From positions 600,001 to 632,000 of the forward strand of contig JASBSB010000006.1 of NCBI GenBank assembly GCA_030149205.1: DNA of 32,000 bases. The letters run 5' to 3'. The first letter of the stretch is position 1. Every line of letters starts with the position of its first letter. The notes below the pieces were generated by a model. That model did no database searches. It saw only the letters and a program-made list of their open reading frames with translations, and was not told the origin of the DNA. A program made the translations under genes and the position numbers. This stretch comes from Candidatus Heimdallarchaeota archaeon (GTDB lineage Archaea > Asgardarchaeota > Heimdallarchaeia > Heimdallarchaeales > Kariarchaeaceae). Shown one piece after another: positions 28,456 through 31,803 of this stretch.

Positions 28456-29265
28456 GTGAATCTAACAAATGATTGCTTGAATTTAACAGAACATTCCCTG
28501 CAAGCAGGAAATAAACAGATCACTTATTATCTAAATAGAAAAGTTAGGAGCAAAAAGAGATGGTACCTAAAGCTCGTTATCAAAGAAGGGAAGGTCTTGG
28601 TTTATGCATCTAAAGCCGTAAAAACAGAAGAAATTAAAAATTTCATTCGAAATAAATCTAATTGGATTGAAGATAAGTTAGCACGATGGAATACTCTAGT
28701 TAAGAACAGCTATGAGCTTAATTTTGAAAGTGGGGGAAATCTACCATTTATGGGGGAATCCTACACTGTTACAATAAAGACCTCAGTAATACTTGAAAAG
28801 ATTGACATTGAAATTGACAAACCAGGAAAAAGAGTGATCATCACCCTGCCTCATACAGTTAATTTACTTGACTTGAAAAATAAAGAGAGTGAATCGTTCA
28901 ATCTAACAGAAAAAGCCCTCATAGCCACTTATAAAGAAAGTATATCACAATTTATCCAATTAGAGGTTGACAGACTTACTAAAAAAATTCAAGTAAGTTA
29001 CAATAAAATAAAAATTAAGACTTTGAAGAGCGCTTGGGGAACATGTACACCTCTGAACACATTGAATTTTAACTGGAGACTTATACTTACCCCAGAGGAG
29101 ATTATTCGATATGTTGTTGTTCACGAAGTGTGTCATCTCAAACATAGAAACCATTCAAAATTATTCTGGAAAGAAGTCTCAAGACATTACCCCTCCTATA
29201 AGGAGGCTAGGAAGTGGTTAACAAAGCACAACATATTGCTTCAAAATTCATTTTCTGTATATTAA
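28456..29265 (+). CDS. M48/YgjP (DUF45, SprT-like) metal-dependent hydrolase
   Basis: SAWGTC, NFNWRL, YVVVHEVCHLKHRNHSKLFW. Confidence 0.9.
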   Translation: MNLTNDCLNLTEHSLQAGNKQITYYLNRKVRSKKRWYLKLVIKEGKVLVYASKAVKTEEIKNFIRNKSNWIEDKLARWNTLVKNSYELNFESGGNLPFMGESYTVTIKTSVILEKIDIEIDKPGKRVIITLPHTVNLLDLKNKESESFNLTEKALIATYKESISQFIQLEVDRLTKKIQVSYNKIKIKTLKSAWGTCTPLNTLNFNWRLILTPEEIIRYVVVHEVCHLKHRNHSKLFWKEVSRHYPSYKEARKWLTKHNILLQNSFSVY

Positions 29266-30215
29266 ATCTTAAATTTGATGCCTGTCAGCTCTTCTGATCT
29301 TTTCCATAGCTCTTTAGCAATTTCTGGGTCATAACTAATCTCGACAGATTTATGTCGAACTGTTGGCCCCCTTGTATGTCCAAACCTCCTTGGACCAAAA
29401 TAATCCCCATTTTCTACATCTGGCCCCACACTTGCATACAACAGTGGAAGGGTTCCAGCATTCACACTTTGAGCTAAAAGAGGATTTAACACCTTATACA
29501 AGAAATAAAATGCACTTTTCCCATCCACACTCGGTCCGGCAGATTGTAAATTAGTCCTGGAATAACCGGGATGTGCTGCAGCTGCAATTACGTCAATTCC
29601 TTCAGCTTTAATCCTTCGTGAGAGTTCATACGTGAAATAAAGGTTAGCTATCTTAGATTGACCATATGCTGTGGTTTTGTTATACTTCTGTTCTGAGTTT
29701 AAATCTACGAAGTTAATTTTTCCTCTTGTCGCAGCAATTGAACTCACATTCACAACCCTACCTTGTGGACTACCTTTTAATGATTTAAAGAGGAGAGATG
29801 TAAGTGCAAAATGACCAAGGTGATTTACTCCGAACTGAATTTCAAAACCATCCTCTGTCTTCAGATATGGAGGCTGCATAATTCCGGCGTTGTTGAGTAA
29901 GACATCTATTTTCTCATAAATATTATTGATCTCATCTGCAAATTCTCTAATACTTCCCAGGCTTGCAAGATCTATTTTTACAAAATTAAGGGTTGCATCT
30001 GAAACTTCTGCTTTAATTTTGTTAATTGCATCTGATGCTTTCTCTTCGTTTCTTGCCGCTATGACCACCTCAGCACCTTTTGAGGCAAGAGCTTTAGCTG
30101 CAACGAATCCCAACCCACTGTTCGAACCAGTAATAATGATTGTTTTACCAGTCTGATCTGGAATTTTTTCATAATTCCAGTTATGAATTGCTAATGGTTT
30201 TGTTGACTGACTCAT
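29262..30215 (-). CDS. Short-chain dehydrogenase/reductase (retinol-DH/WWOX-like)
   Basis: TGSNSGLG, NNAG, NHLGHF, YGQSK. Confidence 0.95.
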   Translation of the reverse strand: MSQSTKPLAIHNWNYEKIPDQTGKTIIITGSNSGLGFVAAKALASKGAEVVIAARNEEKASDAINKIKAEVSDATLNFVKIDLASLGSIREFADEINNIYEKIDVLLNNAGIMQPPYLKTEDGFEIQFGVNHLGHFALTSLLFKSLKGSPQGRVVNVSSIAATRGKINFVDLNSEQKYNKTTAYGQSKIANLYFTYELSRRIKAEGIDVIAAAAHPGYSRTNLQSAGPSVDGKSAFYFLYKVLNPLLAQSVNAGTLPLLYASVGPDVENGDYFGPRRFGHTRGPTVRHKSVEISYDPEIAKELWKRSEELTGIKFKI

Positions 30216-30259: not shown

Positions 30260-30294
30260 AAAAAAAAAAAAAGGAACCCAATGGGTCCCCTTTT
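30260..30294 (-). terminator. Hairpin plus U13 terminator downstream of 16S
   Basis: Minus-strand GGGACCC-AUU-GGGUUCC followed by 13 U. Confidence 0.8.
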
Positions 30295-30350: not shown

Positions 30351-31803
30351 TAGGAGGTGATCCATCTGCAGCTTCCGCTACAGATACCTTGTTACGACTT
30401 CTGCCTTCTCACCTACAAATGCATCGTCCATGCCACGAAGGCATGTCCTCAACACAAGCAGACTCGAATGCAGCGACGGGCGGTGTGTGCAAGGAACAGG
30501 GGCGTATTCAGGGCATCATACTGAAATGCCCTTACTACTCATTCCGCGTTCATGAGGACAATTACATTCCTCAATCCCAACTGAGACAGCGATTAAGGGT
30601 TGGCGTCGTCTTTCGACGTTGCATCCTATTGCCACTGCCATTGTATGCCGCGTGTGGCCCTGTACATAAGGGGCATACTGACCTCGTCTAGACTTCACTT
30701 TCATCTAGCTCATCGCTAGCGATCTTTACAAAGTTCCCAAACTTCCCTGAGGAATTGCTGGTAATTGTAAATGAAGGTCTCGCTCGTTAAACCAATTAAG
30801 GTCACAACTCACGTCACGAGCTTGAACGGGCCATGCACCACCAACCTATACCTCCGGTAACTTCATCAAAGTGACCTTCATAAGTATAGGCGGCACAGGT
30901 AAGATTTCCGGCGTTGAATCCAATTAAACCGCAGCATCCACGAGTTGCGGTATTCCCCCGCCAATTGCTTTAAGTTTCAATCTTGCGATCGTAATCCCCA
31001 AGCGACCCGTTTAATGCCTTCGCTGCAGCACCGGGTTCTAAGAACCCGACACTTAACGGGTATCGTTTACGGCACTTGACTACAGGGGTATCTAATCCCT
31101 TTTGCTCCCAAGGCTTAAAAGTCTGACCGTCAGATGTGTCCTAGAGTATCGCTTTCGCCACAGGTGGTCCAAATAAGATCTACGCATTTCACCGCTCCCT
31201 TATTTGTACCATACTCCTCTTCCACTCTCAAGAAACCACGTTTCACCACCGATTCAATCGTTGAGCGATTGATTTTGAGCAGTGACTATGATTTCCGGCT
31301 GCACTTGCTTTAGGCTCAGTATATCAGTCCTCTCGAAGAGACAGTTTTACCGCGGCTGCTGGCACTGTCCTTGCCCTCTTCTTTCTTTCTAACTTATCTA
31401 CAGTTAGCAACAGTTTCCCGTTAGAGAAACACTCTGTTTTACCTCATCACGATTTCTCGCATTGTGAAGTTTTCTCGTCTGCTGGACTCCGTAGAGGCTG
31501 GAACGTTATCTCAGTTTCCACCTGGCGGCTCCTCCGTTAAGAGCCGCTACCAATTATCACCTAGGTGAGCCACTACCTCACCTACAAGTTAATTGGGCGC
31601 AGTTTCATCCTACCTTGAGTGTTGGTCTTTTCCAAGTCTCCACACCTATAGAGTATTAGCCACAGGTTACCGTGATTATTCTCTGCAGTAGGGTAGATTA
31701 ACGACGTTTTACTCAGTTTTTCGCCAAGATAGTAAACTATCTTTGACTTGCATGACTTAGTATAAAACAGATAGAGGCCTGATCCATCAGCATCAAATGG
31801 TGT
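30351..31803 (-). rRNA. rrs: 16S rRNA (archaeal type, highly divergent, not linked to 23S)
   Basis: Anti-SD GAUCACCUCCU, AAGUCGUAACAAGG, CACACCGCCCGUC (G1408), AUUAGAUACCCC, GUGCCAGCAGCCGCGGUAA, and h1 CCAUUUGAUGCUGAUGG. The ends are approximate. Confidence 0.97.

What the first reader, a model, noticed from the sequence alone, without database searches (positions are those of the whole stretch)
30958..31800. Compensated flip of the near-universal central-pseudoknot pair (C18:G917 to G18:C917) and a rewritten helix 1
Seen (E. coli numbering): the 5' end reads CCAUUUGAUGCUGAUGG, so h1 is CCAUU/GAUGG and 17-19 is UGC. The 907-926 region reads AAACUUAAAGCAAUUGGCGG, so 916-918 is GCA. The two changes (window positions 31791 and 30967) lie about 820 nt apart and restore pairing. 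Known: h2 is essential for small-subunit function, and C18:G917 is almost invariant across domains as far as I know. h44 pairs 1409-1412/1488-1491 are also compensated, with eukaryote/TACK-type G1408. Inference: a functional, fast-evolving ribosome from a long-branch lineage.
Basis: partly seen in the sequence, partly recalled or inferred. Interest (0 to 1): 0.65.

Follow-up and report, generated by a model that had tools for sequence, protein, structure and literature searches.

The report
Flipped pair in 16S central pseudoknot
The only small-subunit rRNA gene of this Asgard (Heimdall-group) archaeon has the middle base pair of its core pseudoknot swapped from C:G to G:C with pairing kept. 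The swap is real and inherited across its family, but the same swap turns up in several other archaeal and bacterial lineages, so it is ordinary compensatory evolution and not a unique break of a universal rule.

Summary
Window 30352-31803 (-) is a full-length archaeal SSU rRNA, and it is the only one in a 3.3-Mb genome. It reads U17 G18 C19 (31792-31790) and G916 C917 A918 (30968-30966). Helix 1 is CCAUU/GAUGG, position 1408 is G, and pairs 1410:1490 and 1411:1489 are compensated.

G18:C917 is shared by five species in three genera of the same family. A sixth species has A18:U917.

Across the order, helix 2 takes five fully paired states:
- UCC/GGA
- UCA/UGA
- UGC/GCA
- UAC/GUA
- GAG/CUC

About 80 other genomes of the phylum all keep UCC/GGA.

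The claim of near-invariance is overstated:
- A truncated scan of species genomes found at least 119 16S genes without G917, mostly U18:A917 in Bacteria.
- 45 of 84 sampled Micrarchaeota species carry C917.
- A truncated metagenome scan gave 120 C917 contigs. They include intact bacterial and other archaeal rRNA operons, and nearly all have a compensating G18.

The gene is a long branch: 52 changes at 554 phylum-invariant sites, against 28-39 in its kin. That count includes other flipped pairs (115:312, 939:1344).

Verdict: a functional, fast-evolving rRNA with an ordinary though uncommon covariation. It is a new member of a known kind and of low-to-moderate interest. The scan had flagged this same stretch once before (e1-5423258).

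The parts
30352..31803 (-). Complete archaeal small-subunit (16S) rRNA gene, the only one in the genome
   Evidence: RF01959 1198.4 bits, model 1-1478; single match in the 3.3-Mb genome
31790..31792 (-). 5' strand of helix 2 (central pseudoknot): U17 G18 C19; G18 = 31791
   Evidence: Sequence; E. coli-anchored alignment
30966..30968 (-). 3' strand of helix 2: G916 C917 A918; C917 = 30967
   Evidence: Sequence; pattern match at 30958-30977; alignment
31796..31800 (-). Helix 1, 5' strand CCAUU
   Evidence: pairs with GAUGG; the same in same-genus genome G002
31784..31788 (-). Helix 1, 3' strand GAUGG
30470..30474 (-). Base of helix 44, 5' strand: G1408 C1409 U1410 G1411 C1412
   Evidence: G1408 in all 34 Asgard SSU genes compared
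30401..30404 (-). Base of helix 44, 3' strand: G1488 C1489 A1490 G1491
30260..30290 (-). 8-bp hairpin followed by a 13-T run about 60 nt past the 16S 3' end. Terminator-like; the 16S is a stand-alone transcription unit.
   Evidence: Read directly from the sequence; the 23S gene lies on another contig

Best explanation
This is the working 16S rRNA of a fast-evolving family of Heimdall-group Asgard archaea. The middle pair of the three-pair helix 2, the long-range helix that closes the central pseudoknot, has been exchanged from C18:G917 to G18:C917. Watson-Crick pairs are isosteric, so the pseudoknot should form as usual (inferred; published E. coli mutagenesis shows that complementarity, not sequence, is what helix 2 needs). 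The exchange happened on the long stem branch of the family, or earlier, and was inherited. One descendant moved on to A18:U917, which is reachable through a G.U wobble. A pyrimidine:purine to purine:pyrimidine flip has no wobble intermediate. With a single rRNA gene it therefore had to pass through a mismatch or a near-simultaneous double change. That makes such flips uncommon and concentrates them in lineages with accelerated rRNA evolution (inferred). The helix 1 and helix 44 changes are the same process at less constrained pairs. The helix 1 change from G-C to A-U pairs fits the AT-poor-to-rich drift of a 35.5% GC genome.
For: The gene is full length and the only copy, and there is a single unlinked 23S. 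UGC/GCA occurs in G000, G002, G004, G009 and G010, which span three genera, and UAC/GUA occurs in G007. Helices 1 and 2 are fully paired in 34 of 34 Asgard SSU genes. Family f1 is monophyletic at 100% bootstrap with a stem of 0.29 substitutions per site, and G000 has the longest tip at 0.23. G000 differs at 52 of 554 sites that are invariant in 26 other Asgard genes, against 34-39 for its family. These differences include other compensated flips (115:312, 939:1344) and transitions (512:539, 580:761, 1063:1193). The SSU gene is 47.4% GC, the lowest of the set, and the genome is 35.5% GC. The same compensated flip occurs independently in Micrarchaeota and in intact bacterial and archaeal operons scoring 1350-1565 bits. 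Literature: helix 2 needs base complementarity, not primary sequence (PMC3900107, citing Poot 1996/1998 and Brink 1993; PMC5329695).
Against: The genome is 93.5% complete, so a second, canonical 16S copy in the unassembled part cannot be strictly excluded. The order of events rests on a 16S tree with weak backbone support (59-69%). Isostericity and unchanged function are inferred, not measured.
Confidence: 0.9

Rival explanations
1. A near-unique break of a universally conserved pair, marking an exceptional ribosome.
For: Outside this order, about 80 genomes of the phylum with a 16S hit all read GGA at 916-918, and 13 of 13 checked read UCC at 17-19. G:C flips were only 4 of 119 non-G917 genes in the truncated species-genome scan.
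Against: C917 is present in 45 of 84 sampled Micrarchaeota species. At least 120 metagenome contigs in about 20 sequence clusters carry it, including bacterial and other archaeal full operons, with G18 in nearly all that could be read. U18:A917 is common in Bacteria.
Confidence: 0.04
2. An assembly, binning or sequencing artefact, or a decaying extra rRNA copy.
For: It has the lowest Rfam score of the order (1198 bits against 1210-1340). Read support is untested.
Against: It sits on a 669-kb contig and is the sole SSU gene. Every helix 1 and helix 2 pair is intact, and the 530 loop, A1492/A1493 and the anti-SD tail are intact. The same two bases occur in four other species-level genomes and in family-like metagenome contigs. 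Two independent errors 824 nt apart that happen to pair are not credible.
Confidence: 0.02
3. The Heimdall-group order is a true hot spot where constraint on the pseudoknot sequence has been specifically relaxed or re-tuned (for example by a changed assembly pathway), beyond general rate acceleration.
For: There are five helix 2 states in one order of 47 species, including all three pairs rewritten (GAG/CUC) in family f4, against one state in the rest of the phylum.
Against: All four families of the order sit on long 16S branches (0.27-0.35), so general acceleration suffices. Micrarchaeota also show four states. No guide or antisense RNA to either strand was found in this genome. A single origin of the purine:pyrimidine state for f1+f4 is not rejected (AU p = 0.44), which lowers the event count.
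Confidence: 0.1

Closest known systems
Central pseudoknot helix 2 (17-19/916-918) of SSU rRNA, as defined by comparative analysis and by E. coli mutagenesis (Brink 1993; Poot 1996, 1998, as cited in PMC3900107 and PMC5329695)
   Same: Three contiguous Watson-Crick pairs joining the 5' end to the 916 region. Pairing is kept through changes on both sides, as the mutagenesis rule (complementarity, not sequence) predicts.
   Different: The middle pair is G:C instead of the majority C:G. The natural variation usually discussed is 19:916 (A-U against C-G, PMC5329695).
Micrarchaeota (DPANN) 16S rRNA genes with UGC/GCA
   Same: An identical helix 2 sequence (U17 G18 C19 / G916 C917 A918) and the identical 907-926 string, seen in 39 of 84 sampled species plus 57 metagenome contigs.
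   Different: A different phylum with about 1-Mb genomes. The helix 1 context differs (..CCAGUCGAUGCUGCUGG..). Canonical GGA in the other half of that phylum, and in all other Asgard, implies an independent origin.
Heimdallarchaeia's known mismatch to the general archaeal probe ARCH915 (PMC7392546: only 2% of Heimdallarchaeia targeted)
   Same: The same 915-934 target stretch. The window differs from the probe target at 917 and at two further positions (probe sequence from my memory; the window sequence is).
   Different: The paper reports probe coverage only. It does not link the mismatch to pseudoknot covariation or to position 18.
U18:A917 variants in Bacteria (Verrucomicrobia, Bdellovibrio-like, mycobacteria, bifidobacteria, SAR11-like single cells)
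   Same: Compensated replacement of the same pair (UUC/GAA or UUA/UAA) in 93 of 119 hits.
   Different: It is of transition type and reachable through a U.G wobble. The G:C flip has no wobble path.

Membership tests
Archaeal SSU rRNA (Rfam RF01959) | Full-length match above the gathering score | tested here: met
   1198.4 bits against a cut-off of 50, model 1-1478
Archaeal SSU rRNA (Rfam RF01959) | Conserved functional strings: 530 loop GUGCCAGCAGCCGCGGUAA, A1492/A1493, 3' GGAUCACCUCC | tested here: met
   Read directly; alignment
Archaeal SSU rRNA (Rfam RF01959) | It is the cell's working copy (no alternative gene) | tested here: met
   One match in the 93.5%-complete genome; the unassembled remainder is not excluded
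Central pseudoknot helix 2 | 17-19 pair with 916-918 by three standard pairs | tested here: met
   U-A, G-C, C-G
Central pseudoknot helix 2 | Pairing supported by covariation in relatives | tested here: met
   Five sequence states, all fully paired, in 34 of 34 genes; 97 of 99 and about 72 of 78 compensated elsewhere
Central pseudoknot helix 2 | Majority identity C18:G917 | tested here: not met
   G18:C917; this is the variant feature
Central pseudoknot helix 2 | The helix actually forms in the ribosome | not testable with these tools
   Needs probing or a structure
G18:C917 clade of Micrarchaeota | Common descent with that clade | tested here: not met
   Only 69-80% identity over 800 nt, and separate clusters; the window's genome belongs to a phylum whose other members are canonical

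The most novel reading that the evidence does not exclude
The Heimdall-group order, among the closest archaeal relatives of eukaryotes, is a specific hot spot of central-pseudoknot rewriting. It shows five states, one of which has all three pairs replaced. This would reflect a lineage-specific change in how the pseudoknot is formed or checked during small-subunit assembly, and not just fast rRNA evolution.
Probability: 0.08. Interest if true: 0.6.

Novelty: new member of a known kind. Interest (0 to 1): 0.25.

Why it matters
It adds a clean natural example, in an Asgard family with a single rRNA gene, that the most conserved pair of the ribosome's central pseudoknot can be inverted if pairing is kept. 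It also shows that such inversions recur in fast-evolving lineages of both domains. In practice, G18, C917 and the helix 1 changes fall inside the targets of widely used archaeal primers and probes (Arch21F, 907R/926R, ARCH915; sequences from my memory). This family is therefore likely under-detected by PCR and FISH surveys, in line with the reported 2% coverage of Heimdallarchaeia by ARCH915 (PMC7392546). It does not point to a new kind of ribosome.

Tried and rejected
1. Trans-acting RNA complementary to the pseudoknot strands in this genome. The best hit was a 17-nt perfect antisense match to 16S nt 1-17 at C1:68798-68814. It lies inside a 457-aa ORF, in the sense orientation on the coding strand, so I read it as chance (about 0.02 expected).
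2. Box C/D-style guides, defined as at least 9 nt antisense directly before a CTGA/TTGA box with a C-box upstream. Only coding-looking chance hits appeared.
3. ARAGORN found 18 tRNAs and no close pairs, so the lead was dropped.
The Heimdall/Asgard label rests on genome-size fingerprints of neighbours and on earlier unverified notes.
6. One cmscan of 20 loci failed internally. I replaced it with BLAST and a smaller cmscan.
7. The original mutagenesis papers (PMC147307, PMC413681, PMC146175) are not held. They are cited only through PMC3900107 and PMC5329695.
8. The odd AT-rich pattern hits in the phylum scan: G162 was checked and is not rRNA. G163, G167, G173, G185, G199, G200 and G223 were not checked and are assumed to be chance.

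Full report
**What is there.**
Window 30352-31803 (minus strand) is a complete archaeal small-subunit rRNA gene: RF01959, 1198 bits, model positions 1-1478. It is the only SSU gene in the 3.3-Mb, 12-contig, 93.5%-complete genome and lies on a 669-kb contig. The single 23S gene is on another contig. An 8-bp hairpin with a 13-T run follows the 16S 3' end, so the 16S is a stand-alone unit.

**Check of the observation.**
- Aligned with E. coli rrsH, the 5' end ACACCAUUUGAUGCUGAUGG gives U17 G18 C19, with G18 at 31791.
- AAACUUAAAGCAAUUGGCGG gives G916 C917 A918, with C917 at 30967.
- The two changed bases are 824 nt apart and pair.
- Helix 1 is CCAUU/GAUGG.
- The base of helix 44 has G1408, C1409-G1491, U1410-A1490, G1411-C1489 and C1412-G1488.
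- Every statement of fact in the finding is correct.

**Relatives.**
The order holds 47 species genomes in four families, and 23 have the 16S region assembled. The helix 2 states are:

| Family / genera | Genomes | 17-19 / 916-918 |
|---|---|---|
| f3 | G013 | UCC/GGA (canonical) |
| f2 | 16 genomes | UCA/UGA |
| f1, genera g1, g2, g3 | G000, G002, G004, G009, G010 | UGC/GCA |
| f1, genus g5 | G007 | UAC/GUA |
| f4 | G014, G016 | GAG/CUC (all three pairs replaced) |

- All 34 Asgard SSU genes compared have fully paired helices 1 and 2, and all have G1408.
- In a 400-genome sample of the phylum, about 80 genomes outside this order have the 16S stretch and all read GGA.
- The 13 outgroup genes that I extracted all read UCC at 17-19.
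- The phylum is Asgard by inference. The neighbours include 6.0-Mb and 4.4-Mb closed genomes with 3 and 2 rRNA copies, and 1.3-1.4-Mb genomes. Earlier unverified notes call this genome Heimdall-group.

**Phylogeny and rate.**
- In a maximum-likelihood 16S tree of 34 genes, family f1 is monophyletic (100%) on a stem of 0.29 substitutions per site.
- G000 has the longest tip (0.23).
- G007 (A:U) falls among the G:C-bearing members with 69% support.
- The backbone of the order is unresolved.
- Forcing f1+f4 together costs 2.3 log-likelihood units and is not rejected (AU p = 0.44). The purine18:pyrimidine917 state therefore arose once or twice in the order.
- G000 differs at 52 of the 554 columns that are invariant in the 26 other Asgard genes. 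Its family members differ at 34-39 and f4 at 28-29.
- Many of these differences are compensated pairs, including two more flips of the same kind (C115:G312 to G:C; G939:C1344 to C:G, and U:A in G007).
- The SSU gene is 47.4% GC, the lowest of the set, in a 35.5% GC genome. This fits the G-C to A-U replacements in helix 1.

**How rare is the flip?**
  - 93 are U18:A917 (Verrucomicrobia, Bdellovibrio-like, mycobacteria, bifidobacteria, SAR11-like cells).
  - 3 are A18:U917.
  - 4 are G18:C917, all Micrarchaeota-like.
  - 2 are uncompensated.
- In a 121-genome sample of the Micrarchaeota phylum, 84 have the stretch: 39 GGA, 39 GCA, 5 ACA and 1 CCA.
  - One of the GCA genomes, G432, is flagged as unpublished.
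  - Without it the count is 44 of 83 with C917, and no claim depends on it.
- A metagenome scan specific for C917 also stopped at its limit, with 120 contigs. They fall into about 20 clusters:
  - 57 Micrarchaeota-like contigs;
  - about 15 like family f1;
  - bacterial clusters with UGG/CCA, UGC/GCA or UGU/ACA;
  - further archaeal clusters with UGG/CCA.
- Ten representatives are full-length SSU genes of 1350-1565 bits, and five of them have a 23S gene on the same contig.
- Of 78 contigs with a readable 5' end, about 72 have G18. Most of the apparent exceptions are mis-detections by my pattern.
- G18:C917 is therefore uncommon but recurrent in both domains, and fixed in large clades.

**Explanation.**
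- Helix 2 closes the central pseudoknot. Published mutagenesis in E. coli found that complementarity, not sequence, is required (PMC3900107 and PMC5329695, citing Brink 1993 and Poot 1996/1998; the originals are not held).
- A G:C pair is isosteric with C:G, so the helix should form as usual (inferred).
- A pyrimidine:purine to purine:pyrimidine exchange has no wobble intermediate. With one rRNA gene it must cross a mismatch. This explains why it is seen mainly on long branches, whereas G:C to A:U (as in G007) can go through G.U (inferred).
- The helix 1 and helix 44 changes are ordinary covariation.

**What I looked for and did not find.**
- There is no convincing antisense or C/D-type guide RNA to either pseudoknot strand in this genome.
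- Reads could not be examined.

**Known context.**
- I found no paper that describes this pair in Heimdall-group archaea.
- PMC7392546 reports that the general archaeal probe ARCH915 covers only 2% of Heimdallarchaeia. That agrees with the variation seen here in its target.
- Primer mismatches in DPANN 16S genes are reported in PMC8407392.

**Verdict.**
The 'fast-evolving, functional ribosome' reading is right. The 'almost invariant' premise is overstated. This is a new member of a known kind, of low-to-moderate interest.

Noticed in passing
L009 (G014) and L015 (G016), family f4 of the same order: All three helix 2 pairs are replaced (G17 A18 G19 / C916 U917 C918), and 919-922 reads AUAG instead of AUUG. 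This is a much deeper rewrite of the central pseudoknot than the one in the window, and two species share it.
   Followed up: partly
L015 (G016), 16S gene, between E. coli positions 908 and 909: There is an AT-rich insertion of about 307 nt right before the 3' strand of the pseudoknot. The sister species G014 lacks it. It looks like an rRNA intron, but its splice structure was not examined.
   Followed up: no
window 30260-30290 (-) and genome contig C8:255460-258678: The 16S gene is unlinked from the single 23S gene (on another contig) and ends with its own hairpin plus a 13-T run. A short-chain-dehydrogenase-like ORF (29262-30215, -) starts about 45 nt past the T-run, about 135 nt past the 16S 3' end.
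   Followed up: partly
window SSU gene, E. coli positions 115:312 and 939:1344: Two more phylum-invariant pairs are inverted in this family (C:G to G:C and G:C to C:G). At 939:1344 genome G007 again carries the A/U version, mirroring 18:917.
   Followed up: partly
Micrarchaeota genomes G422, G429, G437, G444, G509 and metagenome loci L175, L213, L249, L273: Helix 2 reads UGC/ACA, which gives a natural C19.A916 non-standard pair next to G18:C917.
   Followed up: no
window 25380-25466 (+): An 87-nt tRNA (Rfam 51 bits) with a CAU anticodon for which ARAGORN could not assign an amino acid. It is longer than usual and possibly contains an intron.
   Followed up: no
genome contig C1:68798-68814 (L162 2299-2315): A 17-nt exact copy of the first 17 nt of the 16S gene lies inside a 457-aa ORF. 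I judged it to be chance.
   Followed up: yes
window 30389-30691 (+): A 100-aa ORF lies entirely inside the rRNA gene on the opposite strand. It is a spurious frame that annotation pipelines may call.
   Followed up: no
L074 (Mycobacterium MAG) and L103 (Pirellulales MAG): These 16S genes have A917 but C18, an uncompensated C.A at the middle pseudoknot pair. This could be real or an assembly chimera.
   Followed up: no
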